Source: Trichosphaerium sp. ATCC 40318 (taxonomy: Eukaryota; Protista; Tubulinea). Taken from it: a DNA stretch of 64,000 nt. Position 1 is the first letter of the stretch; the number at the start of each line of letters is the position of its first letter. The translations under genes and the position numbers were made by a program. The notes beneath the pieces were generated by a model, which saw nothing but the letters and a program-made list of their open reading frames with translations, did no database searches and had not been told where the DNA came from. The stretch spans positions 92,434 to 156,433 of the forward strand of contig JALMLS010000061.1 of NCBI GenBank assembly GCA_038496445.1. Direction: 5' to 3'. This document shows, in pieces, positions 1-63,468 of this stretch.

Positions 1-705
1 GATAAGAGAAATGGACAATATAAGGCATATTATGAAGATGGAACACTTAAAAACAAGTCACATTTTGTTCATGGTTCCAGAAATGGTATTCTAAAACAGT
101 GGCATGATAACGGACAAATTGATATGGAATGCATTTTTATTGATGACAAGGAGAATGGTGTGTTTAGACAGTGGCATAGAAATGGAACTCTTGAAGTTCT
201 TTGTATAAGTGTTGATGATAAAACAAATGGTGAGTATAAGCAGTGGTACGATAATGGGCAACTTGATTATCAATGTAACAAAATTGATGATAAAAAGAAT
301 GGAGAGTACAAAAAGTGGCATAGGAATGGTCAGTTGTGTGAGGTATCTTTTTATGTTAATGATAACAGAAACGGAGAGTACAAACGTTGGCATGACAATG
401 GTCAATTATTTCAGACTTGTTATTATGCTAATGGCAAGATAAATAGTGAGTTTAAACAGTGGTATGGAGATGGAAGGCTTCACATAAATTCAACCTTTGT
501 TCAAGATAACCGAAATGGTGAAGCCAAGGCATGGTACAATAATGGACAACTCAAAGAACAATCTATGTGGGTAGAAGGCAAGCGACATGGTGAAACCAAG
601 ACATGGTATGACAATGGACAACTCAAGGAGTTGGCTGTTTACGTTGACAACAAAAAGACTTGTGATAACCAAAAATGGGATAGAAGTGGACACCTTATTG
701 TCTAG
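1..705 (+). CDS. MORN-variant (YwqK-like) repeat protein, 5' end outside window; probable F-box-MORN family member
   Basis: Frame is open from base 1 (DKRNGQYKAYYEDG...) to TAG at 703-705, with about nine 24-aa repeats of type G.YK.W..NGQL; no intron. Confidence 0.85.
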   Translation, partial: DKRNGQYKAYYEDGTLKNKSHFVHGSRNGILKQWHDNGQIDMECIFIDDKENGVFRQWHRNGTLEVLCISVDDKTNGEYKQWYDNGQLDYQCNKIDDKKNGEYKKWHRNGQLCEVSFYVNDNRNGEYKRWHDNGQLFQTCYYANGKINSEFKQWYGDGRLHINSTFVQDNRNGEAKAWYNNGQLKEQSMWVEGKRHGETKTWYDNGQLKELAVYVDNKKTCDNQKWDRSGHLIV

Positions 706-20158: not shown

Positions 20159-21080
20159 ATGACGTCTGGAAATACTTCACAAAACAACGTACAGCTATAA
20201 CAACGCATTCAAACGACTAAACCAAAGAAATTAGTTTAATTCTGATGAGTATGTTCTGTTGTGTCTTCCTTTAGAACTACAACTTGAAATCGTTGATTTA
20301 AGCTTTGAAGTTTATCAAAAGTGGCCATTGTTATCAAAACACACTGCGGTAACAACAAGGTTTGATAACGAGTTAAATAAACATGGGAAATGGATTAAAC
20401 GAACTCAGGTCAGTATTAGTCACGTGTATTTCAAAAATGGTAAACGTCATGGAGACTTAAAGCGTTGGTATCCAAACAAACAATTGATGGCTCACTTTAA
20501 GTTTTTTAATGGTAAGCGAGAAGGAGAGCACAAACGGTTCTATCAAGATGGTAAACTAAAGGATAGTTTTAATTACAAAGAAGGCAAACGAGAAGGCAAA
20601 GCCACTCGGTGGTGTAGAAATGGTCAATTACAAATGCAGTACATGTATGTTAATGATAAACTAGAAGGAGAAAAAAAGAAGTGGCATGAAAATGGGCAAT
20701 TAAACGAGGAAATTACTTACGTTAATAATAACAGAGAAGGAAAGCGTAGCCGCTGGTATGATGATGGTATAATGTCATTTCAAAGTACCTATGTCAAAAA
20801 TAAACTTGAAGGAGAATATAAGGAGTGGCACTACAATGGGCAATTGAAATACCATGGCTATTATGTCAACGATAAACTAGAAGGAGACTGGAAACACTGG
20901 AATGAAAATGGAATTTTGCAAAGGCAAAACAACTTTGTCAATGGTAAAAAAGAAGGAGAAGCCAAGAAGTGGCATTCCAATGGCCAGCTAAAGGAAGTAT
21001 CGTATTTTAAGGATGGTGAACAAAGTGGACAATGGAAAACCTACGACTCAGAAGGTATATTGATTGCAGATTTGGAGTGA
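20159..21080 (+). CDS. F-box-like + MORN-variant repeat protein (exon 1 20159-20188, intron 20189-20234)
   Basis: MTSGNTSQNN|FNSDEYVLLCLPLELQLEIVDLSFEVYQKWPLLSK followed by about nine intron-free EG..K.W..NGQL repeats. Confidence 0.85.
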
Positions 21081-21446
21081 AAAAGAGTATTTAAAATAGA
21101 ATTCTTAACAAGGAAAGTGTATACAACACCAAAAAATGTAACATACTCGCGTTTTTCTGCTTGTTCGAAATAAAACACTTAAACCCACGTGATCTACTTT
21201 CATGTTAACTTCTCACTTGAAAGCTATTCTTTGTTAGCGCTAAATTATAGGTTTCGAGCTGGTTTGTGAGCACAGTAAGCATATTATGTAAGCTATCCTA
21301 TTGATGTATCTCTAAGGAATGCTTTGTGGTAGTAAGAGCTGAAGGTCACGTACTTGCTACTAATCGGGAGTGACATTTTGAAAAGTGGTGAGTGTGCGTT
21401 TTCAGAAAATTGGCAAAAGCAATATGCGTTTTTATTGCGCTTTACA

Positions 21447-22850
21447 CTAGGTCATGGAAATCACAGTACTATTATCGGTAAGCCAAGGTCCCCAAAAACC
21501 AGACCACTTTTCTTTTATGACTTCACAAGCTTCTTTCGCTGATTTACCTACAAAGGATGTTAAGATTAGTCGTTGACAATACTATCATTTTGATTACCTC
21601 TATTCGGATTATAAACAGTTTCGAATATTTCAGCAGCACGTGATTTCATGGCATTCAATATATCAGGCTGCTCTGAAGATAAGTCGTGATGCTCGGTTGG
21701 ATCATTAATAATATCAAAAAGGCATCCAGCTCCACAATCATAACGCTTGTCATCACCTAAAAACAAAGAGTTAGAAAACTGTCATCAAACGACATTTTGC
21801 TATGGCAAATAACGCTTACCGACATAGTCTCCTCGTTTTGCAGTCGTCGCATTAGGATAGCTCATACCAGTCCAACCGGAACACCATTGGTCTCCTTGAA
21901 GTAGCTTGTAGTTTCCTAGAGAGAAACTTAGTCACGTGATAGCAGAAAATGATAAACTGTCCTACCTTTGATCAATTGAATGGCTTGTGGCCGTTTCTTT
22001 CTACCAGGGAAACTTGCAAGAGGAATCTCAGTTCTTGGTGATGTCTTATTCTTTCCAGTAATGAGAGACCATACACCAAGACTATCAATATCAGGAACAC
22101 CAGGTACAACATCTTTAGGATCAACACCTGCCAAGTTACATAAAGTTGAATACCAGTCACAAACATGTATGTATCCATCCTGTAAGAAAGTAAGAAAAGA
22201 GTGCTTATTACTGTGAGTACGTACAGTAGATGAACCTTTCTTATCAGAAGGTATAAAACCTCCAGCAACAAACGCAATACCACGAACACCTCTTTCCCAA
22301 TCAGAGTGTTTTCCTCCTTTCAATGGATAATTATTTGCTGCTCCTCCTTTGTACGTTGGTCCGCCATTACTTAAAGTTATGGGTAAGAAGTTTAATTTGA
22401 AGCTATTTTTCTTCTGGACCGAAGTACGTACTCTGTTGAAAATATGATCAAATTATCCCACATTTTCTTTTGTTTAAGAAGGGTTGTAATATTGTTAATG
22501 GCTTCATCAACGAAACTTGACATGCCCATGTACTTTTGTCTGTTCTCGTTGTCTAAACCAGGGTACATATCCTTGTACTTGTCAGGAACTTCAAGAGGAT
22601 CTAAATAGAGAGTAAGACAGTACAAGAAAACTCCATTTCGGGAAATGAGGTGTTTCGATTAAATTACTGTGACAGTTTTGGAACGCCATGTAAAGAAACA
22701 TAGGCTTTGATTTATCATGTGATGTTATCAAATCAAGTGCCTAGAGAGCAAGTAAGATATACGTGATAATACAATCCAGTGACGTACTTTTTTATTGTAC
22801 ATGTATCCAGCATATCCAGTGTTATTCATACCTATTGCTGGTAACTCGTT
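21447..22850 (-). pseudogene. Arylsulfatase (ARSB/I/J-like) C-terminal half; N-terminal catalytic part absent
   Basis: KPMFLYMAFQNCH, PLEVP, DEAINNITTLLK..MWDNLIIFST, NNYPLKGGKHSDWERGVRG, HVCDWYST, LFDIINDPTEHHDL, GFWGPW; no CxPxR exon found, and an LRR gene starts ~170 bp upstream. Confidence 0.8.
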
Positions 22851-23023
22851 CTATTGTTACTGTTGTTCTTATCTAAATGTCTGCCTTACAGCAGTCTCAC
22901 TTAATAAATAGTATAACTACGGTAATCCTGTCTTATTTACATCTCTTCGTGAACCTTCAAGGTTTACTTATAAGCGCTACCATTTCACAATCAAAAAGGA
23001 AAAAACAGCCTTGTTCATTGTGT

Positions 23024-23962
23024 ATGTCTACAAACAGTGCACAAGCAAGCATTTTGGGCTTCTCAACAGAGATATTAGCTATTATTTTACGCGAAACCAC
23101 TAAAGAGCGATTTGCAGCTTGTCAAACATGCCATCGTTTTGCAGCTGTCATTCACGACATAGTTGGTTACGAAAGCGTTACTATTTCGACGCTAGACCAA
23201 GCAAAAGCTCTATTACAGCATTCAAGTGCTCTATTGCACACAAAAATCAACATAATCGGCGAATCCTCGAAGACAATTGTCAAAGAATTTGCTGGTGTTC
23301 GGAACATTAACGTGGGAAGCACTAATGTAGCAGATGAAGGAATCATTACTCTTTCTGGGGTTCATACTATTGATCTTAGTTTCAATACGACGGTCACGGA
23401 TAAAGGCATTAAAGCTCTTTCTGGTGTTCACACCATCAATCTTGATCGCTGCGTCTTAGCAACAGATGAAGGGATCAAAGCACTTTGTGGAGTTCATACT
23501 ATTAACCTATCACACCTTAAAATTACAGATGAAGGGATCAAAGAGCTTGCAGGTGTTCACAACGTTAATCTTTGCTACACCAATGTTACAGATGAAGGCA
23601 TCAAAGCACTCAAAGGTGTACATACTATCAACCTTTCAAATTGTCCAAGCATTACAAATGAAGGTATCAAAGCTCTCCAAGGTGTTCATAAGATTAACCT
23701 TAGTCGAAATTTCTATATAACTGATGATGGTGTCAAATCACTTTCAGGTGTTCATACCATTGACCTTAGTTTTACTTCCGTTACAGATGAAGGTATAAAT
23801 GCACTAAATGGTGTCAGTGACATAAACATTGGTATGACTAAAGTCACAGATGATGGTGTTAAAGCACTAGAAGGTCTACACTCAATTACAATTTTTGGCA
23901 CTGGTGTTACAGATGTTTGCAGGGCTGAATTGAAGCTAAATGGAGTTGAAATTGAAGACTAA
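23024..23962 (+). CDS. F-box-like + LRR protein (10 repeats of 21-22 aa, GVHTI.L....VTDEGIKAL), intronless
   Basis: ILGFSTEILAIILRE...AACQTCHRFAAV F-box-like segment plus regular LRRs; likely ATG at 23024 within ORF 22877-23962. Confidence 0.85.
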   Translation: MSTNSAQASILGFSTEILAIILRETTKERFAACQTCHRFAAVIHDIVGYESVTISTLDQAKALLQHSSALLHTKINIIGESSKTIVKEFAGVRNINVGSTNVADEGIITLSGVHTIDLSFNTTVTDKGIKALSGVHTINLDRCVLATDEGIKALCGVHTINLSHLKITDEGIKELAGVHNVNLCYTNVTDEGIKALKGVHTINLSNCPSITNEGIKALQGVHKINLSRNFYITDDGVKSLSGVHTIDLSFTSVTDEGINALNGVSDINIGMTKVTDDGVKALEGLHSITIFGTGVTDVCRAELKLNGVEIED

Positions 23963-24440
23963 GTCATACAACTTCCAAAGAAAGTGTTAAAAACTCATTT
24001 CATCCATTTGGATAAAAGAAAGCTTACCTCAAAATCACTTCTTAATTAAACACGTGATGACTGGGTAGCGTCTTACTTGCCTTATGTAATAAAGTAGTTG
24101 AGGTTTTTATTGCAGAATTATTGCGTCAAAGGCCACGAGATCATTTTCTTTGAGGTTTTTTGGGACATTACAATCGTTATTAACACAAGCAATAGAGTTT
24201 TTTACATCATTAGCTACTGTTGGATAGCGCTCAATTAGTATCTCGATGAATCGTTCAATTGTTGTCTAATCATGTAGTCAAACACACGTGCGAAAATGCA
24301 AACAAGTTCAAGGTCTTACTTTGTGTGGAACTTCAAGGCGTAATTCTTCTACATTCTCCTCATTGGGGTGATTACGGAATACATAGCGTACTGTTATCGT
24401 CTAAAACTCAACCGTTAACAATATATTTATAACCATAAAG

Positions 24441-26789
24441 GGACCTACCCCGTGGGGTTTATGCGGTTTTGTTGAACCATGTAGCTTTGTTCCAGCCTTT
24501 CCAGATGTAAAATGCATCATAAACTATCAACGGTTAGTATATTACACTTGTAGTACCACAACACACCATGTTTGTATTCACCGCGTTGTACACAATCAAA
24601 CACAGAAAAACGCGCTTAATGTTGAGTCAAAGTCAGTGTCTTGACATGCGAAGAGCATGTCACATTCAATAAGCCAACTAGGGTACAGGTGTCGCAATGC
24701 AAATACTTCCACAATACGCCTAAGGCGTTTGTAAGCGAGAGATTTAAAACAGTTGACTGTTGTTTTTAAACGGATTGCCAAAAGCGTATGTTCCCTGTAC
24801 CTTTTGATGACAAGCTATCTCAGACTCATTTACCAACGTTTGACGAAAATGCGGCTCTAGGATTTAATAAGGGCATTGATTCATACTACGCTGAACCAAC
24901 AGTGCGTTATATGGTAGTTACGTTTATCGTTAATGACTATTATTACAGAATCAAAACACAAACAGCCCGCTAATATCACCAAGACGCACCCCTGATACTA
25001 TATGGACGACCAATACAGAGAAATTTTCGTTAGATTCCATACCGCGCAATAAAGGTAAAAAACAAATTACATTTAACTTCTAAACGTACCTAGTTATCCC
25101 ATCAGGCGAAATAACCTTACACGGAACAATAGGAAGCGGTTTTTTTGGCGCAGTTTCCAAGTACGTTTAAAAAATGATAAAACTAAGATCTGTCATTACC
25201 ATTCAACGCAAGAGGCGTATTAATACGCAAAAGGGGTATGTGGCGTGGCAGAAAAGTAGCTGTAAAGAAAATAACGCGTCAAACATTCAGGAAGTTATCA
25301 TCGGTAGATCTATTCGGTAAAGAGATAAAGATATGGTCTATACTTGACAACCAGTACATTGTTGCATTTCTTGGTATTTGTATTAATGCACAAGACCACT
25401 ACATAGTGACAGAATGTACGTCATCCAACTGGTAACACCTTGAGATACCGAAACTCGTTTTTGACGGTCTAAGAACACCAATTTTTTAGAAAACTGAAAA
25501 AATTCTTGATATCTGCTGAAATACGATTTGAAGATTAGAGACACTCACAAAACTAAACCACTAAGCGCCAGAGAATTTTTTTCACAAACACAGTTTTTTT
25601 TCTTGGATTGTTCTTTGTGTTTTCGAACTACTTCGACGTTGAACCCACACTGGGGCACAGTTACAAGAAAATATATGACAGTGATTCTTTACCTTTTCTT
25701 AGTGCCTTTGGCTTATTCTAATTTTTAGATATGGACGGTGGTAACCTCCAAGATTTCGTCCTACAGCAAGGTGGATTACTTACAGTACAAAGAATCCTTA
25801 GTTTTGCAAAGTCTATGGCAGCAGGTATTTTTTTGTTCTGTCGCCACAAAACACCTTTTTGTTTGGTTACTATACCTATGTATTCATTTATTTCTTAAGG
25901 CGTAGCATACCTTCATGGACATACACCATCGATCATTCATCGTGATTTGACGCCTAATAACGTGTTGGTAGGCAACACTTTTTTTTCTCTTTTATTCCTA
26001 TTTTTTTTGATTTTTATTCTCTCGGTTTTCTTCTTCTTGTCGTCTTACTATCTATTTTGTAGCTGGATAGTAACTTTATTAATTGCAAAGTTGCTGATTT
26101 TGGGTTGTCTCGGTTTAAAAACCCACAAGGACTAATGAGCGCTGCTGTTGGTAGTTTAGGTGAGTTTATACATGATTAATTATTTTTTCTTGTTTTGTTA
26201 AAATTAACACCCTCAAAATACTTTGTGATTGACTGAACTAACAATCAACGTACACATAAATACTCGCATTATGTAATAATACGGTTTACATTGAACTCAA
26301 TTAATACCTAAACTTCACTTAGTGTAGTCGTTTTCTAGAATTTTTTTTTACATTTTTTTGACTTTTTATTTTTGTGCCTTTCTGAACGATTTAACCGTTA
26401 CAATATTCCTCAAGTTACTCAAATAAATACTTACCCAAACTTAGTATATATGGCACCAGAAATTTATAAAGGGGAGCGGTATAATGAAAAAGCTGATGTT
26501 TACAGTTTCGCCATCATTTTATGGTTTTTATTCAGTACGTGATTGTATGGTTTCTGCTTCTCTAGCCATAGTGCTCACGTGATTTTTTATAGGCAAAACA
26601 CAACCTCATGTTTTTCATAATGTATCTTCTGACTTATTCGCTTCACTTGCCGCAATGGAACAGCAAAGGCCTTCCTTGAAACGAGTTGAGATGGCTCAGT
26701 GTTGGAAAAACTTAATAAGGGCGAGTTGGAATCCTGATTTTAATCAACGCCCATCGTTTGTTGAAATTTTAAACCTTATCAACCGGTGA
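24441..26789 (+). CDS. TKL (Raf/DRK-like) protein kinase, multi-exon; 5' end uncertain
   Basis: [66 protein letters not shown]. Confidence 0.9.
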
Positions 26790-27076
26790 CTGTGGATTTT
26801 TTGAAACAAGTAAAAAAGGGTCTGAATGAACACTCGAGTGTAAATTTGTAGCAAAAAAAAGAAAAAAAAAAAAGGTAGCAAAAAATAAAATGCATTGTAA
26901 ATTAACAAGCAGTAGTAAGGGTTTATTGTGGGAATTTATCTTCCTGATTCTCTTAGATAATGAAGGAAAGTAAACTGACAAGTATAACCATAATTGAAGG
27001 AAAGTTGAATGACCCAGATTAGCACTAAAAAAAGATAAACAATAATCCCAAGTTTTAGTTCGTTATTACTTGGAAC

Positions 27077-27530
27077 CTACACTTTTTCATCCCTAAGAGT
27101 TTGTTTTATGGGAGGTAGTACGTAAATAAAACAGTCTTTATTGTTAACGTGAACTAACTCACTGTGATGAACACAACCTAGCTCAAAATATGGATTATCG
27201 ATATTCAGGTCAATTCCGATGATAGTTTTTTTCTCATGTATATTTGGAATTATCTGGCTAAAACCCAACTGTTAGCTGGTTGTAGGCGTTAAATACCACC
27301 TTTGCGTGTAATCCAAGGCACTAAATAGTTTATTGGGTTTGTCTGATTGCTAAAATTAAGACTTCTATTCTCACGTGTGATGACTTTCTATAATATACTG
27401 AATCATTGCGATTCCCACTTTTAAAGAGTTGTCTATCATAATACGCTCTAATTTGTTTTTGGGTAGAAGGGTATTACCAAGAAGGGTTATAGTTTCGGGC
27501 CTTGGAAGAAAACTCGCACTTTGAATGTCA
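27077..27530 (-). pseudogene. Degenerate coding fragment of unknown family (copy at ~59930-60381, + strand)
   Basis: Exon-like AYYDRQLFK.GNR.DSVYYR and QSDKPNKLFSALDYTQRWYLTPTTS*QLGF.QIIPNIHEKK with an in-frame stop. Confidence 0.35.
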
Positions 27531-27845
27531 CAAAAATAATCGGGCTGTCATTGAGAATTCGAAGGAAATTTAATAGACGCGTAATCAGCTTTTTACTCTT
27601 GTGTGGCCAAAGGGTAGCCAATTGGTACAAGTGGTAATTCGCTTGAGAGGTCTTTAGTGTACAATGAACATAACAAGGAAATTAACACAAAACACGCCAT
27701 TTGCAATTGTGGTACAATATTCTTTTAGTACTTCTTAACTATGTACAAGGCGCCAGTGACATTCTCCTGGAGTGCAATGACTTATAAGAGTTTTATTTAA
27801 TATGTTTGATTACATTTGATTGAGATACGTATATTTATATACCTC

Positions 27846-30470
27846 CTAATTGAACAAGTACTTGATTGCCTTGTCTAAATCTCCATCACTTACAAATAAA
27901 GCTTCTTTTGCTTTTGATTCACTAAATCCAAGCTCTATCAATTTTTGTATACTATCTCTAGTAGCACGACGTGGTGGATTGTTTGAATAAGACTGGTTTC
28001 TAGCATTGGTTGTTGTACTGAATTTAGAAGTTCTTCTTGATCCAGTTTGTCGTTCAGGTTTCCTTGCTGAAGTAGTACTGAACTTAGACGTTCTCCCCCT
28101 TGGTCCTGTTTGTCTTACAGTTTTCTGTATCTTTATGCTCTCCCACTTTCTTTGTTTTTTCTGTCTAGTACTATACTTAGACTTACGTTCTCTGTTACCT
28201 AATAGAAATTACTAACGAATACCACGGGCTAAGATCCTCGCAGTAAAAAATTGTTGGGCGTATTTTTAGTGGTTAACGCTCTATTTGAGCATGGCGTTTC
28301 ATTTGGAAAAAAGCTGACTTAACACTGATATGGACTACTCGTATTCGTAGTATTTCATAACCGCTTGATCATGATAAAAGTATCTTTTGATTGAAAAAAA
28401 AAAAAGCTCTAAAACCAACTTACTTGAACATTGTGAAAGACGTGATCCGGTGGTATTCATCTGCTCGATTTTTTTTAGAACCTCAACAATACTACTAAAT
28501 GTTGGTCTTTCTGTTGGTTGACTATCCCAACAATCTTGAGCCAAGTAGGCTAGTTCTGATACGTCATCCTTATCCCAAATTTCGTCGGGGAAAGACGGCC
28601 TTTTAGCTTGCATTACACGACGTCTTTAATAATTAATAAGTTAATTAACCTCCGTTTTATTCTAAAAGTATTGTCGTACGCTAGGTCTGTTTTATCTATG
28701 ATATCCTTCCACGCGCGCTCAGAGCATATAAGCTCGTAGCATAGTATACCAAAAGCATATACATCCGCCCTAGCGAACAAGGTTAGTTATTTCTTGAGTG
28801 CTGCGTTCTCTTGCACGTACATTTGCCAATCTTTGATTGTTACTTTACCTGGAGTATCAGGGAATAAGGCATGTACTTCTGGAGCCATGTATCTTGACAG
28901 AGATTTAAAAAAAGTACTAGAAGTGAAAAGAAAGGCGGGTTTTTTTAGAATAAAAACATGGGACATACATTGGTGTACCCATGCCTGAACGGGTGACATT
29001 AATTGATCTGCCTCCAATACTTCTTTGTACAGTAGCTCTTTCATTCGCTGATGATACAGAAGAAAGCTTACTAATACCAGTTGTACCACAAATTCTTGAA
29101 AGCCCAAAATCTAATATTTTCACATTTGATCCAGCGTATACCATAACCTAACAAATAGGTCATTTACTTTACATACATATAACCGTAGGTCTTACATTTT
29201 CTGCTTTTAAATCTCTATGAGATCCATTCACTTTATGTATATACTCCATACCAAGAGCAATACCCTGTAAAATCTTCAACCTTCTTTCAAAAAACTTCGG
29301 CTAAAAATAACACCAGTTAGCAGTTTACTCTCCGTTGAACACGGCCACAAGGCGGTGCGTTTAAAATCAAGGAATTGTGATTTCAAACACATGTGAGCGC
29401 TTATTATTTGGGTCACAGATGCGTACCTGAAAAGCATTGCGTATTATAAAGTCCGTTAAAGATTTATCCGTGTCTTCTGGAAACTCAATAATTTTTGCCA
29501 AATCATTGCCAGGAATATATTGCGTTACAATACCCAATACCTTCCTTGATACACCTCTAATATTGACATCACCTAAATTATACGTCAAAAATAATAACAT
29601 GATTTAAAAAAAAACCTCAGCGGCACTGATCACGTGATATAATTATAAAATTTGTCAAATCTTCAAACGCACCATTTATGTAGCCAAGGAATTTTACAAT
29701 ATTTTCGTGATGTAGGGACTTCAATGTTATAACCTCTCTATGAAATAAAGCAGCATCATCCCCTTTTGCATCAACAGCAGCATTTCCTTTAAGTATCTTT
29801 ACAGCGACTGGCTCACCAGCAAACATCGCTAGATACACCTCTACAAAAAGAACACAAAATTAATCAAAAAAATGTATCTAACGAAAGAAGCGCATGTTAC
29901 TATCTTACCTCCGTATACACCACTACCAAGGCATGCTTCATTATCGTACTTTGATATAAGCTTGTTTGTGGGAATATACTATTGAAGATAAAGCAGTTTA
30001 GAATACACAAAGTAAACTTTTTTCTTTTTTTTTTTTTTCCAAGTCGTACCTTAACGCCTGCGTCTTTTAGTGCTTGCAGTTCCCTCTCGAACTTCTCCTC
30101 GCTCTTTTCTACACGTTCTTTGACCTCTTTATTCACTTTCTCTCTTCGTTGACGCGCTTCATTTGAATTTATTTTTTCTTGCTCTAATATACGCTTTTCA
30201 ACCTCTGCTTGAAGTTTTTCGCTTTAATAGAAACGTTAGACTCGATGTCAGTTGTACGCATGTAAAAAACTCACCGATGCTCTTCTTTCCAAGCCTTACG
30301 GTTATTTTCGTGGTTTTGCTGCATTAACGCTATCATTTGGTTCATCTGTAACGAAATCAGTTACATATTTATTATTGCTTAGTTCAAACCTGCTGTTGTT
30401 GTTGTTGCATCATTGCCTGTATAATAGGCGACATGTCAGGAGCCGATGGGCTTGAAAAAAGACCTCCCAT
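27846..30470 (-). CDS. N-myristoylated coiled-coil TKL-type kinase with C-terminal UBA domain, multi-exon
   Basis: MGGLFSS start, Gln-rich/charged coil, LGSGVYGEVY, VAVK, HRDLKAEN, DFGLSR, GTP.YMAPE, C-terminal IQKLIELGFSESKAKEALFVSDGDLDKAIKYL. Confidence 0.9.
28267..28380. repeat. Dispersed ~130-bp repeat, copy 2 (kinase intron)
   Basis: Matches 6641-6770. Confidence 0.85.
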
Positions 30471-31066
30471 CGTATAATATGTTGTAAACTGTTCGTAACA
30501 CTATATAATATACTAAACTCGTAGTTCCTTTCCAAAGGAACTCGACGTTAAGTCAGGAACAAACCGAAGCAGAACAATTCACTTAAAGTTCCGGATTTGC
30601 CTGCTGTTGAATTGCGTCTACAAATGCTGTTAAAAAAAGAGCTCATTTTTGCGTAATGTTTTATCACGTGATGTATTTGAAGTCAACAGAGCCAGATTAT
30701 GTATGCACTCCACTTTTAAAACAAATTATTTATGCTCTTTAAAATACTTTTATGCGATTGATGCTTCGTGTAATAATAGTCGCACATGGTGTGAACAACC
30801 TTATTCAAGCTTAATGTATTCACTTATGTGATGTAGTCTACAATGACTCTAAAAAATAGTTTAAATTAGAGTTTTGGACTATGATTAAAAACTCGGCATT
30901 TTTGAAAATAATATTGTGCTACAGAGTTAAGTCGTTTTATACTTTTCACACTTGGTATACAGTGTTAAATAAAGCGTTTAAGCCTATGTGGAACGTACAT
31001 AATATAGCTCCAATTCACAGCTGAAACTGAATCAGTGGTACTCTTGTTTTGGGTTTGTTCTTTAGT

Positions 31067-31350
31067 TTAGTTCAAATGTGTGACAATAGAGCCTGTCAGC
31101 GCCTTTATGCCTTCACCTGTTATTGCATAGCACTTAAGTAAAGAAATAGTGTACACCAACTAATGCTTTAACACCTTCATCAGTTACATAGCTACAATTT
31201 CTCAAGCGGATTCTGTGCACTCCTGCCAAAGCCTTCAAACAGTCATCTGTTACATAATAACACCCTTATAATATTATTGTACACCAGCCAACGCTGAAAG
31301 GCCTTCATAGCTCACACACAAGCAAGAAAGCATAGACCAGGTGCATCAGT
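31067..31350 (-). pseudogene. Frameshifted LRR relic of the TDEG/GVH family
   Basis: EGLSALAGV.., YVTDDCLKALAGVHRIRLRNCSYVTDEGVKALVGVH.., ITGEGIKALTG across two frameshifts. Confidence 0.8.
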
Positions 31351-31614
31351 AAAGAATCACTTTGTAGTGAATGTATGTTTGTGTGACGAAACCATGGTAT
31401 CACAAAAACCGGTAATAGTAGATTATACCTTAACAACCGCTTGGTAACAAATAAAAGCCCACACCAACAAATAATTAACAAGTTTTGATAACAACTGTCT
31501 TGGAGTTGACCTATTGACTAGAAGATTAATAACAATCCGATTTTTATTTGGTCATTGGATAAAAACATGGACGTTAAACTACTCAACACAGCTACAACAG
31601 TTTATTTTATTTGC

Positions 31615-32278
31615 TTATGAATACTTTCCATAAAGTACCCTTAACCCTGATGTACTCCAGCCCTTCATCTCTCCTGTGGGTTTGCCATTGATGTAATTAC
31701 ATTGTATTTGTAATTGGCCATTTTCATGCCATTTATTCCACTCTCCTTCTCGATTACTGTTGATATACTTACCTTGGGCCAGCAATTGGCCGTTTTCATA
31801 CCATAGCTTGTACTCTCCTTCAAGTTTGCCATTGATGTAATTACATTGTGTTTGCAACTGGCCATTGTCATGCCACTGTTTTGACTCTCCGTGTCTTAGA
31901 CCATTCTTGTATGATTCTTTCCAAAACACAACACCATTACCATGCCAACGCACATCCTGTCCATTCACTACACCATGGTCCCATTTTCGCTGTTGTAGGA
32001 GTACATAACATTCTTGAAGAAGGGTATATCGCTTCCATTTGCCATGTTTATTAAATGATTCATCGAAACGTATTACCACTGTTTTCGTTGACAATAGAGG
32101 CCATTTAATAAACATTTCAGGATCTGTATCTATTATTTCAAGTTGTAACTCTACTGGAAGGTCTAATACATTCCGAACAATCCTCGCACTTGAATTTCGC
32201 TAGTATCACCATTAAAAAAAAAAAGCACGTGCAATATTCCAAAGGAGATGTCATCGAGCGTACTTGTTTCTTTGACAT
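31615..32278 (-). CDS. F-box-like + MORN-variant repeat protein (5' micro-exon MSKKQ + intron)
   Basis: MSKKQ|RNSSARIVRNVLDLPVELQLEIIDTDPEMFIKWPLLS, then MORN repeats; GTACG...CTAG intron. Confidence 0.85.
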
Positions 32279-32506
32279 TTATTCGTTATTGTAAGGCCAC
32301 TATTACGTACAGGAACCTTTAAAATAAGTATATTTTCTTCTAGTGGGATGAAAACCGTTAATTTAGTCCGTCGTTTGTTGGAGTAAAAGGCGTGACTGTC
32401 ATTTATTTGGGTCAAACACAGTAAAAACGTGATGACATATTAGAATACTGAGAAAACCAGCGGTAAAAGGGTCAATCCGCATCATACTGTTTTGTGCACA
32501 ACTCAA

Positions 32507-33660
32507 ATGTCTAGTAAAACCAATTCAGAACCCGTTTATCATAGGTACTAGTGCTAACATATAACACTTCTCGTTACCCTCTAAATAACATTGTAGTACA
32601 GAAGCAATGCTGGTTGACTTGCCTACAGAGATTTTAGCTTATATTTTGTCTAAAACAACAACAACAGCGCAATTTTCAGCTTGCCAGACATGAAGGTATC
32701 AAGGCACTCAAAGGTGTTCACACTATTAGTCTTGGTGGCACTGCAGTAACAGATGAAGGTATCATAGCACTCAAAGGCATTCATACTATTAACCTTGGTG
32801 AAACTTCAGTGACAGACAAAGGTCTCAAAGCACTCAAAGGTGTTCATACTATTGATCTTTCTGGTTGTAAAAAAGTAACCGATGAAGGTATCAAGGCACT
32901 CAAAGGTGTTCATAATATCAACATTGAAAGTACTGAAGTTACAGATGACGGAATCAAAGAACTTGCTGGAGTTCACACAATCAATCTTTCATTTACCTCT
33001 GTAACAGATAAAGGTGTAAAAGCTCTTGCTGGAGCGCATAGCATTAAGCTTTGTGGGTGCGATAACATTACAAACTTAGGTAAAGACCTTACAGAAGTTT
33101 AAACAACATGATCTTTTGTAAAGCATAGCAACTGACATTCTCTTTCTAGCAAACAATTTACCACTGAAATTTTTTGTAAAGGCTCCAGCCTAAAAAGAAC
33201 ATGATCTGGGGCTATCTAAGGATGACATTATTCGTGTTTATGACAATGATGGTGTACACTTACAAAATTTTCCTTAGTAAAAGCTAACCTTTTTGTTACT
33301 AGGATTGGTGGTTTGGTAAAAATGGTGAAAACTGTGGTTATTTGCCAAGCAATTATGTAGAACAAATCTATCCTCAATTTTGGGTTGTTGCCTTGCACAA
33401 GTTCAGCTCTGGCATAGATAATGCTCTGGATTTGTCCAAGGGTGATGAAATTCTCGTCTATGATAATAATATGTACACATTCTTTCTTTAGTTGTTTTTT
33501 CCTTTCCTTGTTCATTACATAAATTTGTATTTAGGACTGGTGGTTTGGTAAAAATGGTGACAACTATGGTTATTTCCCAAACAATTATGTAGAAAAAAAA
33601 AACCTACAGAAGATCTTTTCCAAGAGCAAAATTTGTTTAGTGATGTTACAAACTAGTTAA
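32507..33660 (+). pseudogene. F-box-LRR-SH3-SH3 gene with internal deletion, premature stops and a frameshift
   Basis: MSSKTNSEPVYH|STEAMLVDLPTEILAYIL..CQT* (TGA 32691 at a deletion junction), about 6 LRRs, in-frame intron 33080-33149 into SH3 motifs DLGLSKDDIIRVY, DWWFGKNG..GY.PSNYVE (twice); TAA at 33191. Confidence 0.8.
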
Positions 33661-49646: not shown

Positions 49647-51296
49647 CTATTGTTTAAAGATTCTCCATGTGTACTCGTGAGGTATAAAGTATGTTAAATC
49701 TCTATCAAATACCTCCCTTATACTATTCTGTTCTGTATTGACATAGATATACTTAACTGAAGGAGGTAATACTGAAGCAATCATCTCCAACTCGCTTTCA
49801 GGCATTGGATGCTTTTTAGCCTTTTCAATAGCAACGTGAGTTAAGTTAGGACATAACTTAATAAAGTTGACATAATTTGCAAGATTATAGCTCCGTATAG
49901 CTAACTTCTTAAGTCTTTCAAAAGTCAATATATCGCATGAATCAATATTTGATCTTGAGTTAACAAATCCACTTAGAGATAACTCTTCAATACGTGTTCT
50001 TAGTGAACTATTGCTGAAATGTTCTAAACACATTATAATATTTGTACCAACAATAGTAACATTTGTAAGGTTTGTTAAGTACTCAAGATGACGTGGTTGG
50101 AATACAGATGTTTGCCATAGTTTTATCTTTTTTATATGTGGACATTGTTTACCAAGAATAGAGAAGTCAAGATTATCCCATGTATATATCTCTAATGACT
50201 CTAAAGAAGAAGGAAATGTATTCAAGTTAATACCAGAGTAATAATAATACTGACACTGTAAGTGTTTTAAGTTACAGTATAAGTTCAAGTTAAGTGGCTC
50301 TCCCCAAGCACAATAAGCAAGATGTGTTATATTTGTTAATCTCTTTGATGAAGAGCTATCTGATACCGATGTTGATGTAGACGGAGATGATAGGATCTGA
50401 GCACCAAATCCTACTTTTAAATATTCAAGTTTAGTCAGATGAGAGAATAGCTCCAAAGAAAGACGTCCATCACTTATCTCAAGCATACGTATATTTTTTG
50501 TAAGAGGTAATAAAAGGTTAAATAAGTTTATATTAAGAGATCCACTACATCCACCTTTTAAATGCCATAATCTTGGGAATGTCAAGTCCTTAAAAAACTT
50601 TTTCCAGTTTTTCTTCTTTATCATTGAAGAAGAGAACATTGATATAGATTCAAGTGATTTCGAACATTGTGAAAAAAATTTGATAAGTGTCGTTGCACTT
50701 ACAGTCGACTGTGATATCGTAAACTCTCTGACACCCGTCATATTTGATAATAAAGCAGTTAAATCCCCTGGTTTGAATCTACAACTAATTTCAAGCTATC
50801 ACGTGAATTAGCACGTGAAAAAAAAAAACAGAAAAAAGAAGAAAATTTCTCGCTCAGAGAAAACTCATCAAAATTCAAGTAATATCTAATGTAGCGACAT
50901 GAAACGGTTGACATTGTCTTCTCCGAAAGCGTACCTTTCTGACAGCGTCTTTTTTAAGGTGTTTGCTTGCTACACAAAGGAAGCTTGAAGGTATATTCTC
51001 AGAGTCAAGGTAGAGCTCTCTCCAAAGCTCTGGTGACCACGATATCCGTTGAAACATTTTGCATACAGATGAAAGCTTTAAGATCTCTTCTAAATCGAAA
51101 TCTTGCAGTATAATGAACCAAACGTCGTCTGGAATGAACGGTATCTGAAATACGTAAGTTAAAACGCCTTGAAAGTGATCGTAAATGCGTTTTTGAGCGT
51201 TATTTAACGTTTTTTATGGCGTTTTAGACGTACTGATGGTTGAGTAGGCTGTTTAGGGTTTCCATTTTGTAATAGCTCGTTTTTTCGCTTGTTCAT
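49647..51296 (-). CDS. Canonical F-box / divergent LRR protein, 3 exons
   Basis: IPFIPDDVWFIILQDFDLEEILKLSSVCKMFQRISWSPELWREL F-box, then a long exon with FPRLWHL, LTKLEYL, CPNLTHV LRR-like units. Confidence 0.85.
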
Positions 51297-54142: not shown

Positions 54143-54445
54143 CTACAAAAGAGCAGACATATAAAATGAACTACTGAAAGATGGCCTCGAGAATGTTGCT
54201 TGCAAGCATTCCTTGGTACCAATTTCAACACGCATATACAAAGGAAAGTGTATAGGAAGTTGTGGGATTGTAAACTGCTTCTTAAACAATCTGAACGATA
54301 ATTTTGCTTCGCCACGATCTAGTTTACTTACTGTCAAGCTTGATAGACCATCTCTGTATTTCCAACTCTAGTAAAAACCATCAAAGATTTCCGACTTAAT
54401 GATAATCACTAGGTACCTTCAGTGCTCCTTGACGAGTTTGTTTAG
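54143..54445 (-). pseudogene. 3' fragment of an unidentified gene cut by the duplication junction
   Basis: PKQTRQGALK|intron|SWKYRDGLSSLTVSKLDRGEAKLSFRLFKK...MSALL* starts exactly where LRR homology ends. Confidence 0.45.
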
Positions 54446-54923
54446 GCTTTGAGACCTTCATCTGTCACTGAAGTTTCACCAAGGTTAATAGTATGAACAC
54501 CTTTGAGTGCTATGATCCCTTCATCTGTTACATTTGAACACCAAAGGATAATGGTATGAACCCCAGAAAGTGCTTTAAGACCTTCATTTACAACGTTTTC
54601 AGATAACAACTTAAATAACATGATTTTTGTATGCCTTAGAACACCACTATGTTTTGCAGCTGATTTTATTTGATTTTCTGTTCGAAGTGTTATTCTATCA
54701 TACCCTATAATATCATGAACGATAGAAGCAAGGTGATGACATGTCTGGCAAGCTGAAAATCGCGCTGTTGTTGTTTTAGACAAAATATAAGCTAAAATCT
54801 CTGTAGGCAAGTCAACCAGCATTGCTTCTGTACTACAATGTTATTTAGAGGAGTAACGAGAAGTGTTATATGTTAGCACTAGTACCTATGATAAACGGGT
54901 TCTGAATTGGTTTTACTAGACAA
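54442..54923 (-). pseudogene. Truncated F-box-LRR (partner copy of the 32507 gene); exon-1 ATG changed to TTG, internal ATG at 54822 intact
   Basis: MLVDLPTEILAYILSK...CQTCHHL..., then 2-3 LRRs ending at the junction at 54446. Confidence 0.8.
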
Positions 54924-55150
54924 TTGAGTTGTGCACAAAACAGTATGATGCGGATTGACCCTTTACCACTGGTTTTCTCAGTATTCTAATATGTCATCAC
55001 GTTTTTACTGTATTTGACCCAAAATAAATGACAGTCACGCCTTTTACTCAACAAACGACGGACTAAATTAACGGTTTTCTTCCCACTAGAAGAATATATA
55101 CTTATTTTAAGGGTTCCTGTACGTAATAGTGCCCTTACAATAACGTCTAA

Positions 55151-55814
55151 ATGTCAAAGAAACAAGTACGCTCGATGACATCTCCCTTGGAATATTGCAC
55201 GTGCTTTTTTTTTTTAATGGTGATACTAGCGAAATTCAAGTGCGAGGATTGTTCGGAATGTATTAGACCTTCCAGTAGAGTTACAACTTGAAATAATAGA
55301 TACAGATCCTGAAATGTTTATTAAATGGCCTCTATTGTCAATGAAAACAGTGGGAATACGTTTCGATGAATCATTTAATAAACATGGCAAATGGAAGCGA
55401 TATACCCTTCTTCAAGAGTGTTATGTACTCCTACAACAGCGAAAATGGCACCGTGGTGTAGTGAATGGACAGGATGTGCGTTGGCATGGTAATGGTGTTG
55501 TGTTTTGGAAAGAATCATACAAGAATGGTCTAAGACACGGAGAGTCAAAACAGTGGCATGACAATGGCCAGTTGCAAACACAATGTAATTACATCAATGG
55601 CAAACTTGAAGGAGAGTACAAGCTATGGTATGAAAACGGCCAATTGCTGGCCCAAGGTAAGTATATCAACAGTAATCGAGAAGGAGAGTGGAATAAATGG
55701 CATGAAAATGGCCAATTACAAATACAATGTAATTACATCAATGGCAAACCCACAGGAGAGATGAAGGGCTGGAGTACAGCAGGGTTAAGGGTACTTTATG
55801 GAAAGTATTCATAA
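55151..55814 (+). CDS. F-box-like + MORN repeat protein, copy 2 (exon 1 55151-55165, intron 55166-55229)
   Basis: Near-identical to 31615-32278. Confidence 0.85.
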
Positions 55815-56078
55815 GCAAATAAAATAAACTGTTGTAGCTGTGTTGAGTAGTTTAACGTCCATGTTTTTATACAATGACCAAATAAAAATCGGATTGTTAT
55901 TAATCTTCTAGTCAATAGGTCAACTCCAAGACAGTTGTTATCAAAACTTGTTAATTATTTGTTGGTGTGGGCTTTTATTTGTTACCAAGCGGTTGTTAAG
56001 GTATAATCTACTATTACCGGTTTTTGTGATACCATGGTTTCGTCACACAAACATACATTCACTACAAAGTGATTCTTT

Positions 56079-56362
56079 ACTGATGCACCTGGTCTATGCT
56101 TTCTTGCTTGTGTGTGAGCTATGAAGGCCTTTCAGCGTTGGCTGGTGTACAATAATATTATAAGGGTGTTATTATGTAACAGATGACTGTTTGAAGGCTT
56201 TGGCAGGAGTGCACAGAATCCGCTTGAGAAATTGTAGCTATGTAACTGATGAAGGTGTTAAAGCATTAGTTGGTGTACACTATTTCTTTACTTAAGTGCT
56301 ATGCAATAACAGGTGAAGGCATAAAGGCGCTGACAGGCTCTATTGTCACACATTTGAACTAA
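56079..56362 (+). pseudogene. Frameshifted LRR relic, copy 2
   Basis: Reverse complement of 31067-31350. Confidence 0.8.
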
Positions 56363-56960
56363 ACTAAAGAACAAACCCAAAACAAGAGTACCACTGATTC
56401 AGTTTCAGCTGTGAATTGGAGCTATATTATGTACGTTCCACATAGGCTTAAACGCTTTATTTAACACTGTATACCAAGTGTGAAAAGTATAAAACGACTT
56501 AACTCTGTAGCACAATATTATTTTCAAAAATGCCGAGTTTTTAATCATAGTCCAAAACTCTAATTTAAACTATTTTTTAGAGTCATTGTAGACTACATCA
56601 CATAAGTGAATACATTAAGCTTGAATAAGGTTGTTCACACCATGTGCGACTATTATTACACGAAGCATCAATCGCATAAAAGTATTTTAAAGAGCATAAA
56701 TAATTTGTTTTAAAAGTGGAGTGCATACATAATCTGGCTCTGTTGACTTCAAATACATCACGTGATAAAACATTACGCAAAAATGAGCTCTTTTTTTAAC
56801 AGCATTTGTAGACGCAATTCAACAGCAGGCAAATCCGGAACTTTAAGTGAATTGTTCTGCTTCGGTTTGTTCCTGACTTAACGTCGAGTTCCTTTGGAAA
56901 GGAACTACGAGTTTATAGTATATTATATAGTGTTACGAACAGTTTACAACATATTATACG

Positions 56961-59580
56961 ATGGGAGGTCTTTTTTCAAGCCCATCGGCTCCTGACATGT
57001 CGCCCATTATACAGGCAATGATGCAACAACAACAACAGCAGGTTTGAACTAAGCAATAATAAATATGTAACTGATTTCGTTACAGATGAACCAAATGATA
57101 GCGTTAATGCAGCAAAACCACGAAAATAACCGTAAGGCTTGGAAAGAAGAGCATCGGTGAGTTTTTTACATGCGTACAACTGACATCGAGTCTAACGTTT
57201 CTATTAAAGCGAAAAACTTCAAGCAGAGGTTGAAAAGCGTATATTAGAGCAAGAAAAAATAAATTCAAATGAAGCGCGTCAACGAAGAGAGAAAGTGAAT
57301 AAAGAGGTCAAAGAACGTGTAGAAAAGAGCGAGGAGAAGTTCGAGAGGGAACTGCAAGCACTAAAAGACGCCGGCGTTAAGGTACGACTTGGAAAAAAAA
57401 AAAGAAAAAAGTTTACTTTGTGTATTCTAAACTGCTTTATCTTCAATAGTATATTCCCACAAACAAGCTTATATCAAAGTACGATAATGAAGCATGCCTT
57501 GGTAGTGGTGTATACGGAGGTAAGATAGTAACATGCGCTTCTTTCGTTAGATACATTTTTTTGATTAATTTTGTTCTTTTTGTAGAGGTGTATCTAGCGA
57601 TGTTTGCTGGTGAGCCAGTCGCTGTAAAGATACTTAAAGGAAATGCTGCTGTTGATGCAAAAGGGGATGATGCTGCTTTATTTCATAGAGAGGTTATAAC
57701 ATTGAAGTCCCTACATCACGAAAATATTGTAAAATTCCTTGGCTACATAAATGGTGCGTTTGAAGATTTGACAAATTTTATAATTATATCACGTGATCAG
57801 CGCTGAGGTTTTTTTTTAAATCATGTTATTATTTTTGACGTATAATTTAGGTGATGTCAATATTAGAGGTGTATCAAGGAAGGTATTGGGTATTGTAACG
57901 CAATATATTCCTGGCAATGATTTGGCAAAAATTATTGAGTTTCCAGAAGACACGGATAAATCTTTAACGGACTTTATAATACGCAATGCTTTTCAGGTAC
58001 GCCTCTGTGACCCAAATAATAAGCGCTCACGTGTGTTTGAAATCACAATTCCTTGATTTTTTAAACGCACCGCCTTGTGGCCGTGTTCAACGGAGAGTAA
58101 ACTGCTAACTGGTGTTATTTTTAGCCGAAGTTTTTTGAAAGAAGGTTGAAGATTTTACAGGGTATTGCTCTTGGTATGGAGTATATACATAAAGTGAATG
58201 GATCTCATAGAGATTTAAAAGCAGAAAATGTAAGACCTACGGTTATATGTATGTAAAGTAAATGACCTATTTGTTAGGTTATGGTATACGCAGGATCAAA
58301 TGTGAAAATATTAGATTTTGGGCTTTCAAGAATTTGTGGTACAACTGGTATTAGTAAGCTTTCTTCTGTATCATCAGCGAATGAAAGAGCTACTGTACAA
58401 AGAAGTATTGGAGGCAGATCAATTAATGTCACCCGTTCAGGCATGGGTACACCAATGTATGTCCCATGTTTTTATTCTAAAAAAAACCGCCTTTCTTTTC
58501 ACTTCTAGTACTTTTTTTAAATCTCTGTCAAGATACATGGCTCCAGAAGTACATGCCTTATTCCCTGATACTCCAGGTAAAGTAACAATCAAAGATTGGC
58601 AAATGTACGTGCAAGAGAACGCAGCACTCAAGAAATAACTAACCTTGTTCGCTAGGGCGGATGTATATGCTTTTGGTATACTATGCTACGAGCTTATATG
58701 CTCTGAGCGCGCGTGGAAGGATATCATAGATAAAACAGACCTAGCGTACGACAATACTTTTAGAATAAAACGGAGGTTAATTAACTTATTAATTATTAAA
58801 GACGTCGTGTAATGCAAGCTGAAAGGCCGTCTTTCCCCGACGAAATTTGGGATAAGGATGACGTATCAGAACTAGCTTACTTGGCTCAAGATTGTTGGGA
58901 TAGTCAACCAACAGAAAGACCAACATTTAGTAGTATTGTTGAGGTTCTAAAAAAAATCGAGCAGATGAATACCACCGGATCACGTCTTTCACAATGTTCA
59001 AGTAAGTTGGTTTTAGAGCTTTTTTTTTTTTTCAATCAAAAGATACTTTTATCATGATCAAGCGGTTATGAAATACTACGAATACGAGTAGTCCATATCA
59101 GTGTTAAGTCAGCTTTTTTCCAAATGAAACGCCATGCTCAAATAGAGCGTTAACCACTAAAAATACGCCCAACAATTTTTTACTTCGAGGATCTTAGCCC
59201 GTGGTATTCGTTAGTAATTTCTATTAGGTAACAGAGAACGTAAGTCTAAGTATAGTACTAGACAGAAAAAACAAAGAAAGTGGGAGAGCATAAAGATACA
59301 GAAAACTGTAAGACAAACAGGACCAAGGGGGAGAACGTCTAAGTTCAGTACTACTTCAGCAAGGAAACCTGAACGACAAACTGGATCAAGAAGAACTTCT
59401 AAATTCAGTACAACAACCAATGCTAGAAACAAGTCTTATTCAAACAATCCACCACGTCGTGCTACTAGAGATAGTATACAAAAATTGATAGAGCTTGGAT
59501 TTAGTGAATCAAAAGCAAGAGAAGCTTTATTTGTAAGTGATGGAGATTTAGACAAGGCAATCAAGTACTTGTTCAATTAG
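56961..59580 (+). CDS. Myristoylated kinase-UBA, copy 2
   Basis: Same motifs as 27846-30470, reading frame intact. Confidence 0.9.
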
Positions 59581-63022: not shown

Positions 63023-63468
63023 CTTTATGGTTATAAATATATGGTTAACGGTTGAGTTTTAGACGATAACAGTACGCTATGTATTCCGTAATCACCCCAA
63101 TGAGGAGAATGTAGAAGAATTACGCCTTGAAGTTCCACACAAAGTAAGACCTTGAACTTGTTTGCATTTTCGCACGTGTGTTTGACTACATGATTAGACA
63201 ACAATTGAACGATTCATCGAGATACTAATTGAGCGCTATCCAACAGTAGCTAATGATGTAAAAAACTCTATTGCTTGTGTTAATAACGATTGTAATGTCC
63301 CAAAGAACCTCAAAGAAAATGATCTCGTGGCCTTTGACGCAATAATTCTGCAATAAAAACCTCACCTACTTTATTACATAAGGTAAGTGGACACTACCCG
63401 GTCATCACGTGTTTAATTAAAAGTGATTTTGAGATACCCTTTCTTTTATCAAAATGAAGTTGCATGAC

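What the first reader, a model, noticed from the sequence alone, without database searches (positions are those of the whole stretch)
20159..33660. Candidate diversifying F-box + repeat (MORN/LRR) receptor arsenal of giant-virus style, domesticated by a protist
Seen: three distinct MORN-variant genes (1-705, 20159-21080, 31615-32278) and three TDEG/GVH-LRR loci (23024, 31067, 32507), plus duplicates. Every member whose 5' end is visible has a short F-box-like LP.E-type segment joined to an intron-free repeat array, and intact genes sit beside relics. Known: F-box proteins are SCF ubiquitin-ligase substrate adaptors, and MORN-repeat, LRR and F-box genes are abundant in amoeba-infecting giant viruses. 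Inference: this is a birth-and-death family of ubiquitin-targeting receptors, possibly virus-derived, that could act as an intracellular defence repertoire against viruses or bacteria.
Basis: partly seen in the sequence, partly recalled or inferred. Interest (0 to 1): 0.85.

Follow-up and report, generated by a model that had tools for sequence, protein, structure and literature searches.

The report
Amoeba's hidden F-box repeat gene families
These are host genes of an amoeba-like protist from two large, fast-changing families that join an F-box head to MORN or leucine-rich repeats and likely feed chosen proteins to the cell's ubiquitin disposal machinery; giant viruses have similar genes, but a viral origin and a defence role are untested.

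Summary
The window has three distinct MORN_2 genes, two intact or near-intact F-box-LRR genes and one LRR relic, among ordinary intron-rich host genes. The 'duplicates' all come from one 9.3-kb inverted duplication at 97.6% identity.

The LRR head is an F-box by Pfam. The MORN head is missed by Pfam, but it matches an F-box profile above 100 of 100 shuffles and co-folds on a stand-in Skp1 (0.73 against best control 0.00). About 54 clusters at 50% identity share that head; the one with a species name is Trichosphaerium. Spliced contigs cover two members.

Origin is unresolved. Giant viruses carry the same layouts, but the MORN head was not found in viral contigs, and the unrooted tree does not nest the amoeba rows among viral ones. 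Positive selection is not shown. Defence is untested. A Trichosphaerium genome paper already lists F-box and MORN as the commonest viral-match domains. The scan earlier noted F-box-MORN genes in Pandoravirus DNA.

Verdict: new variant of a known kind.

The parts
1..705 (+). MORN_2 repeat gene, 3' part; the 5' end and any head lie outside the window
   Evidence: Pfam MORN_2 E 4.5e-35; no head profile match in the visible part
20159..21080 (+). Intact F-box-like head + MORN_2 repeat gene; short first exon 20159-20188, probable 46-nt intron 20189-20234, main exon 20235-21080
   Evidence: Contigs at 20375-21184 (1 difference), 20790-21076 (0) and 20235-20387 (0; the match stops at the predicted acceptor) in three runs. 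Model: two helices then a long beta-hairpin sheet
20256..20348 (+). Cryptic F-box head of the MORN family (residues 8-38 of the main exon)
   Evidence: No Pfam F-box hit; profile match to an F-box set above all 100 shuffles; forms most of the predicted Skp1 interface
23024..23962 (+). Intact, single-exon F-box + linker + short-LRR gene, 312 aa
   Evidence: Pfam LRR_6 E 5.8e-19; F-box-like E 0.011, below cut-off
31091..31289 (-). LRR relic: about three repeats with a stop and a frame change, no head
   Evidence: tblastn and six-frame reading
31615..32278 (-). Intact F-box-like head + MORN_2 gene; first exon 32278-32264, 64-nt intron 32263-32200
   Evidence: Pfam; intron skipped in contigs of X1 and X3
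32507..33102 (+). Broken F-box-LRR gene, copy A: 5' intron at about 32545-32596, half an F-box, then a deletion and frameshift at about 32690 before the repeats
   Evidence: F-box stub E 0.007
54442..54822 (-). Copy B of the same gene: whole F-box and linker, ends after about two and a half repeats, near where similarity to copy A stops
   Evidence: Pfam F-box-like 26.7 bits, cut-off 24.3; alignment; a spliced contig in X2 carries copy B's letters
55230..55814 (+). Second copy of the 31.6-kb MORN gene (97.4% aa)
   Evidence: contigs in X1, X3 and X4 carry its diagnostic letters
63469..64000 (-). Second copy of the 23.0-kb LRR gene, cut by the window end (98.3% aa)
54740..64000 (-). Inverted copy of 23431-32692; holds all the 'duplicates', including the relic copy at 56140-56338
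   Evidence: 97.6% over 9,326 columns; 100 substitutions and 33 indels
49647..51213 (-).
   Evidence: F-box-like E 4.6e-08 at 50878-51213; weak FNIP hit at 49650-50795

Best explanation
These are the protist's own nuclear genes, from two lineage-expanded families that likely work as substrate adaptors of the SCF ubiquitin ligase. The N-terminal F-box is predicted to dock on Skp1; the C-terminal MORN_2 sheet or LRR solenoid would bind a target protein, which would then be ubiquitinated and degraded. Copies are gained and lost quickly, so intact genes sit beside relics. Shown: the layout, the host context, splicing of two members, family size and relics. Predicted: Skp1 docking. Inferred: substrate binding by the repeats and birth-and-death turnover. 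I think surveillance of foreign or conflict proteins is the likeliest single driver of the expansion (about 1 in 3), by analogy with nematode F-box families, but nothing here tests it.
For: Host context: Nup107, INTS7, frataxin, CAF1, sulfatase, kinases and Myb flank the genes. LRR head: 12 of 12 amoeba-type heads scanned hit a Pfam F-box model at E up to 0.1, and 3 of 12 pass the curated cut-off. MORN head: hhalign score 19.2 (E 3.6e-4, probability 37%) against a 20-row F-box set; 0 of 100 column shuffles reached it (best 14.8) and the reversed profile scored 7.7. Co-fold with Skp1: 0.73 against best of 3 controls 0.00; runs agree in at least 85% of contacts; partner pLDDT 87. The mark was reached by 51 of 78 solved complexes and 2 of 108 mismatched pairs, and on eukaryotes by 71 of 105 and 2 of 126. 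Interface residues L11, P12, I19, L33 and A38 are kept in 48, 52, 43, 50 and 50 of 54 family members. Family size: 55 clusters at 50% identity match the head, one of them spurious; 128 contigs of one run lie on a 1.8-kb stretch, 107 of them under 90% alike. LRR variation is concentrated after the beta strand, on a fixed backbone.
Against: Pfam finds no F-box in 0 of 17 MORN-family proteins scanned. The head profile finds nothing meaningful among solved-structure sequences. Fold searches with the isolated head model (pLDDT 68) gave nothing at E up to 0.001. The Skp1 used is from a giant-virus bin, not from the host, and Skp1-F-box complexes are solved, so the pass may reflect likeness rather than binding by this copy. 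No substrate is known. The MORN head (38% mean identity) is only slightly more conserved than the repeat units (33%), and those units were picked by a motif.
Confidence: 0.72

Rival explanations
1. One reading: both families were taken from giant viruses and domesticated as an intracellular defence repertoire against viruses or bacteria.
For: F-box + GVHTI-LRR genes lie in giant-virus-like contigs; one is 57% identical over 159 repeat residues. Atlas neighbours of both proteins are mostly Nucleocytoviricota clusters (leads only). The best viral fold matches are giant-virus MORN proteins. The Trichosphaerium paper reports F-box and MORN as the commonest viral-LGT domains. The repeat exons have no introns.
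Against: The MORN head patterns gave 0 confirmed relatives among 42 viral stretches, and none of 26 head-bearing proteins whose source I saw is labelled viral. The exact LRR motif is in only 3 loci of 2 viral genomes. A relative with the same linker occurs in a second amoeba, Clydonella. Amoeba rows form one side of the tree rather than nesting among viral rows, with weak support and no root. dN/dS is below 1 even at the variable positions. There are no infection data.
Confidence: 0.2
2. The families are old amoebozoan SCF adaptors that regulate the host's own proteins, for example in the cell or life cycle. Giant viruses picked up occasional copies from amoebae, and best-hit annotation then labelled the host paralogs as viral.
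For: The Clydonella relative shares head and linker. The exact motif is rare in viral contigs and absent from prokaryote genomes. In the paper's table, 25 of the 31 F-box rows I saw have the same description and species, an Indivirus F-box protein, which looks like one expansion rather than many transfers.
Against: From my own knowledge, MORN_2 is typical of bacteria and giant viruses, not of eukaryotes, so that repeat was probably acquired. Several viral clusters of F-box-LRR proteins exist. Frequent relics fit poorly with essential regulators. I did not fetch the Indivirus protein, so its link to this LRR family is inferred.
Confidence: 0.25
3. The expansion is largely non-adaptive drift: easily duplicated short genes with a residual F-box, many without a substrate.
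For: Relics are common: both copies of the 32.5-kb gene are broken, in different ways. Between the two copies of the duplication, the MORN and LRR genes differ at 8 non-synonymous and 3 synonymous codons, close to neutral though the numbers are tiny. Drift was proposed for chlamydial F-box expansions (PMC4209131, passages).
Against: Key head residues and the repeat backbone are kept across about 54 clusters under 50% identity. Backbone dN/dS among LRR units is about 0.16.
Confidence: 0.2
4. The genes belong to an integrated giant-virus segment or are contamination.
For: Resemblance of the repeats to viral and bacterial proteins.
Against: The genes are interleaved with intron-rich host genes, GC content is flat across the window, spliceosomal introns are removed in contigs, and no viral core gene turned up in the Pfam scans.
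Confidence: 0.02

Closest known systems
Trichosphaerium sp. 'giant-virus-derived' F-box and MORN genes (PMC10521059; results 3.1-3.5, discussion 4.4, part of the methods and supplement rows read)
   Same: The paper reports F-box and MORN as the commonest domains among viral-match genes, scattered over scaffolds, many with introns, several expressed. The only species-named relative of the MORN head is Trichosphaerium sp. ATCC 40318.
   Different: In the parts I read it treats them as best-hit transfers and links them to the cell cycle. It does not describe an F-box head on the MORN/'YwqK' genes, paralog families or relics. Table S3 lay beyond the cut of the supplement file, so I could not see it.
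Giant-virus F-box + LRR and F-box + MORN proteins (Pandoraviridae, Marseilleviridae, Klosneuvirinae, Orpheovirus)
   Same: Same two-part layout; the LRR unit is nearly the same in two viral genomes.
   Different: Here the genes are nuclear and spliced, the LRR family has an extra linker, and the specific MORN head was not found in viral contigs.
Caenorhabditis and plant F-box expansions (PMC8120010, passages read; Thomas 2006 known only as cited there)
   Same: Hundreds of fast-turning-over F-box adaptors with a conserved head and a variable binding domain; an immune role is proposed.
   Different: They use other binding domains, and positive selection is shown there but not here.
Parachlamydiaceae F-box-LRR expansions, NEX1 (PMC4209131, passages read)
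   Same: F-box, a conserved linker of about 50 aa, then LRRs; birth-and-death evolution in an amoeba setting.
   Different: Those are secreted effectors of bacteria; the repeat motif here matched 0 places in prokaryote genomes.
Bacterial YwqK-family 'antitoxin' / MORN_2 proteins
   Same: Same repeat (PF07661), 25-47% identity.
   Different: No F-box head, prokaryotic, and no toxin partner is seen here; the label looks like a best-hit artefact for these genes.

Membership tests
F-box proteins (SCF adaptors) | N-terminal F-box motif, LRR family | tested here: met
   Copy B passes the Pfam cut-off; 12 of 12 amoeba-type heads hit at E up to 0.1 and 3 of 12 pass the cut-off
F-box proteins (SCF adaptors) | N-terminal F-box motif by Pfam, MORN family | tested here: not met
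   0 of 17 proteins hit an F-box model
F-box proteins (SCF adaptors) | F-box likeness by profile comparison, MORN family | tested here: inconclusive
   Score 19.2, above 100 of 100 shuffles, but probability only 37%; fold searches of the isolated head found nothing
F-box proteins (SCF adaptors) | Docks on the C-terminal helices of Skp1 (prediction, MORN head) | tested here: met
   0.73 against best control 0.00 with a stand-in Skp1; prediction only, may pass by likeness to solved complexes
F-box proteins (SCF adaptors) | Binds Skp1/Cul1 and directs ubiquitination of a substrate in the cell | not testable with these tools
   Needs a pull-down and a ubiquitination assay
F-box proteins (SCF adaptors) | C-terminal protein-binding domain | tested here: met
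   MORN_2 and LRR_6; beta-hairpin sheet at pLDDT above 90
Birth-and-death gene family | Many divergent paralogs | tested here: met
   About 54 clusters share the MORN head; many contigs under 90% alike within single runs. No genome was held for a direct count
Birth-and-death gene family | Pseudogenes beside intact members | tested here: met
   31.1-kb relic; both copies of the 32.5-kb gene broken
Birth-and-death gene family | Differing gene sets between related species | not testable with these tools
   No relatives' genomes held
Virus-derived (domesticated) genes | Host sequences nest within a viral clade | tested here: inconclusive
   LRR tree: amoeba rows and viral rows fall on different sides, support 81, unrooted, quick search only; no MORN tree was built
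Virus-derived (domesticated) genes | The family-specific domain is present in viruses | tested here: inconclusive
   LRR unit yes; MORN head not found, only an Atlas lead at 0.90 with a low shared-feature count
Immune receptor repertoire | Positive selection on the binding face | tested here: inconclusive
   Among 15 LRR units, variable positions have pN 0.51 and pS 0.73; synonymous sites are near saturation
Immune receptor repertoire | Induced by, or protective against, infection | not testable with these tools
   No challenge data

The most novel reading that the evidence does not exclude
A marine amoeba lineage fused or inherited an F-box on a bacterial/viral MORN_2 repeat and expanded it to several hundred genes that hide in annotation as 'YwqK antitoxins'. 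With the F-box-LRR family they form a ubiquitin-based intracellular immune repertoire aimed at giant viruses and endosymbionts, turning the viruses' own adaptor design against them. A few such families would also account for much of the 'record' gene transfer reported for this genus.
Probability: 0.2. Interest if true: 0.85.

Novelty: new variant of a known kind. Interest (0 to 1): 0.5.

Why it matters
Large F-box expansions are known in nematodes, plants, chlamydiae and giant viruses. A host-encoded family of F-box + MORN_2 adaptors was not described in the papers I found (searches; open-licence library only). The head is invisible to Pfam, so these genes get labelled as bacterial antitoxins or viral transfers. 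The Trichosphaerium supplement has 719 mentions of 'YwqK', 176 of 'MORN' and 216 of 'F-box' in a file that holds all 27,369 gene models. If most are paralogs of a few families, counts of independent gene transfers in that genus are inflated, and the amoeba gives a test case for ubiquitin-based defence in a single-celled eukaryote. How many of those models carry the head is unknown.

Tried and rejected
No whole genome was held, so there is no genome-wide count. Single-protein scans of viral contigs found no relatives. The broad LRR alignment could not be used for a viral scan, nor the narrow one for prokaryote genomes. The phage collection gave only two weak MORN hits. The solved-structure sequence search with the MORN head gave one chance hit, E 1.7. 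Fold searches of the isolated head gave nothing. The head profile found 0 of 2 giant-virus bins; a third locus was not held. The metagenome scan returned 39 loci of MORN_2 genes with other heads; these heads did not match the amoeba head or the F-box set. The careful tree and the AU test did not finish. No listed run is on record as RNA; expression rests on spliced contigs. The 23.0-kb LRR gene has only short, low-depth covering contigs, so I make no claim on its expression. Thirty short frames between 43 and 54 kb had no Pfam hit. Rejected: sequencing error as the source of the two copies, because contigs carry both versions; an integrated viral segment; and a toxin-antitoxin role.
Full report
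Setting. No genome is held for this window. The window is an intron-rich eukaryote with flat GC near 36%. Pfam finds Myb, CAF1, frataxin, a sulfatase, two kinases, SH3, Nup107, KRTCAP2 and INTS7 around the flagged genes. The only species-named relative of the MORN family head is from Trichosphaerium sp. ATCC 40318, an amoebozoan; a relative of the LRR family is from Clydonella. I infer the host is Trichosphaerium or a close relative. That rests on paralog similarity, not on a housekeeping marker.

Observation. All duplicates lie in one inverted copy of 23431-32692 at 64000-54740 (97.6%), with 100 substitutions and 33 indels. Both versions are real sequence: one contig in X3 matches copy A at the diagnostic sites, and contigs in X1, X3 and X4 match copy B. 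They may be two alleles joined in assembly or a recent duplication; I cannot tell which. The one published Trichosphaerium assembly was made from amplified DNA (PMC10521059 methods), which from my own knowledge can create inverted joins; whether that applies to this window is unknown. The 32.5-kb LRR gene is broken in both copies: A by an internal deletion with frameshift, B by ending after about two and a half repeats.

Gene structure and expression. The repeat arrays lie in single exons, but a short intron precedes the head in three genes. It is skipped in contigs for the 31.6-kb MORN gene (X1, X3) and for copy B of the LRR gene (X2). It is inferred for the 20.2-kb MORN gene, where an X5 contig stops matching at the predicted acceptor. 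No run is on record as RNA, but the same runs skip five introns of the neighbouring sulfatase, so they hold spliced transcripts. The five runs come from three studies and are assembled contigs, so they give presence, not level.

The heads. For the LRR family, 12 of 12 amoeba-type heads hit Pfam F-box models and 3 pass the cut-off. For the MORN family Pfam finds none in 17 proteins. A profile of 55 MORN heads aligns to a 20-row F-box set over 30 columns with score 19.2; 0 of 100 column shuffles reached that, but the probability is only 37%. By eye the head is an F-box one residue short before the final L-[CS]-K. Residues 3-110 of the 20.2-kb protein co-fold on a Skp1 taken from a giant-virus bin (L032; Pfam Skp1) with score 0.73 against best control 0.00, contact agreement of at least 85% and partner pLDDT 87. 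The mark was reached by 51 of 78 solved and 2 of 108 mismatched pairs. Contacts fall on Skp1's C-terminal helices and mostly on head residues 5-38, which include the family's best-kept positions. Because Skp1-F-box complexes are solved, the pass shows likeness and not binding by this copy. Alone, the head models poorly (pLDDT 55-70, 68) and matches no fold.

Family size. The head profile matches 55 clusters at 50% identity among 1.84 billion proteins; one is a spurious repeat and two look like one gene. I saw sources for 26 head-bearing proteins: 17 protist transcriptome records, 7 short JGI contigs, 1 Logan and 1 ENA contig, none labelled viral. On a 1.8-kb stretch, 128 contigs of X1 were laid, 107 under 90% alike; these are assembly pieces, not genes. 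The Trichosphaerium supplement mentions YwqK 719 times, MORN 176 and F-box 216. All 32 YwqK rows I saw are classed as bacterial, and 25 of the 31 F-box rows I saw name an Indivirus F-box protein. These counts may include isoforms and redundant haplotigs, and I could not check that they carry the heads studied here. Table S3 was beyond the file's cut and may bear on the novelty claim.

Diversification. Among 15 LRR units from the window, the backbone is fixed and variation sits after the beta strand and at one helix position. The pooled variable positions have pN 0.51 against pS 0.73, and the backbone 0.13 against 0.51. So there is diversity on the expected binding face but no sign of positive selection; synonymous sites are near saturation. 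Between the two copies, MORN and LRR genes differ at 8 non-synonymous and 3 synonymous codons, too few to interpret.

Origin. F-box + GVHTI-LRR genes occur in two viral genomes. One, L113, lies beside an NAD ligase, a capping enzyme, Erv1 and a histone-fold gene and is 57% identical to the 23.0-kb protein in the repeats. Atlas neighbours are mainly Nucleocytoviricota for both proteins (leads, and the LRR query's recognition value was below the tool's mark). Against a simple virus-to-host story: the MORN head is not found in viral contigs, the amoeba LRR proteins have a linker shared with Clydonella and lacking in the viral ones, and a quick unrooted tree of 35 rows puts the 11 amoeba-like rows and the 3 viral rows on different sides with support 81. 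I chose the amoeba-like label myself from source and linker, left 21 rows unlabelled, and included 35 rows in all, most of them drawn from the 72 hits. My estimate is that the MORN_2 repeat was acquired from a virus or bacterium (about 70%), while for the LRR family the direction is a toss-up.

Mechanism and verdict. The best reading is two expanded families of SCF substrate adaptors in birth-and-death turnover (0.72). The rivals overlap with it, since they differ mostly on origin and purpose. Defence is plausible by analogy with Caenorhabditis (PMC8120010, passages) but has no direct support. The viral resemblance is already published for this genus (PMC10521059). What is new here is the cryptic F-box on the MORN_2 family and the sign that many reported transfers may be paralogs of a few families. 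New variant of a known kind; interest 0.5.

Noticed in passing
window 1-64000: The palindrome CACGTG occurs 49 times against 9.7 expected (largest of 100 shuffles 16), often near gene ends and in introns; it could be a promoter or splicing element. Some copies are duplicated by the inverted segment.
   Followed up: partly
window 23431-32692 and 54740-64000: Inverted 9.3-kb copy at 97.6%, both versions present in contigs; alleles joined in assembly or a recent duplication. It may extend past the window end.
   Followed up: partly
window 43980-45675 and 47855-49556: Direct repeat of about 1.7 kb at 88.8% identity holding an intron-containing gene pair with no Pfam hit.
   Followed up: no
window 49647-51213 (-): A further F-box + LRR/FNIP-like gene unrelated in repeat type to the GVHTI family.
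   Followed up: partly
window 6676-6786, 28282-28399 and 59027-59144: A short dispersed repeat of about 115 bases at 81% identity, in non-coding or intronic DNA.
   Followed up: no
L074-L112 (e.g. L079, L098, L099): AT-rich, gene-dense metagenome contigs with tandem arrays of up to 15 MORN_2 genes, each with one of two conserved N-terminal heads that match neither the amoeba head nor the F-box set; probably viral, function of the heads unknown.
   Followed up: partly
L008, L009, L014, L030, L032, L045, L061, L062, L067: Several viral contigs, many from giant-virus bins, encode full Skp1 homologs.
   Followed up: partly
   Followed up: no
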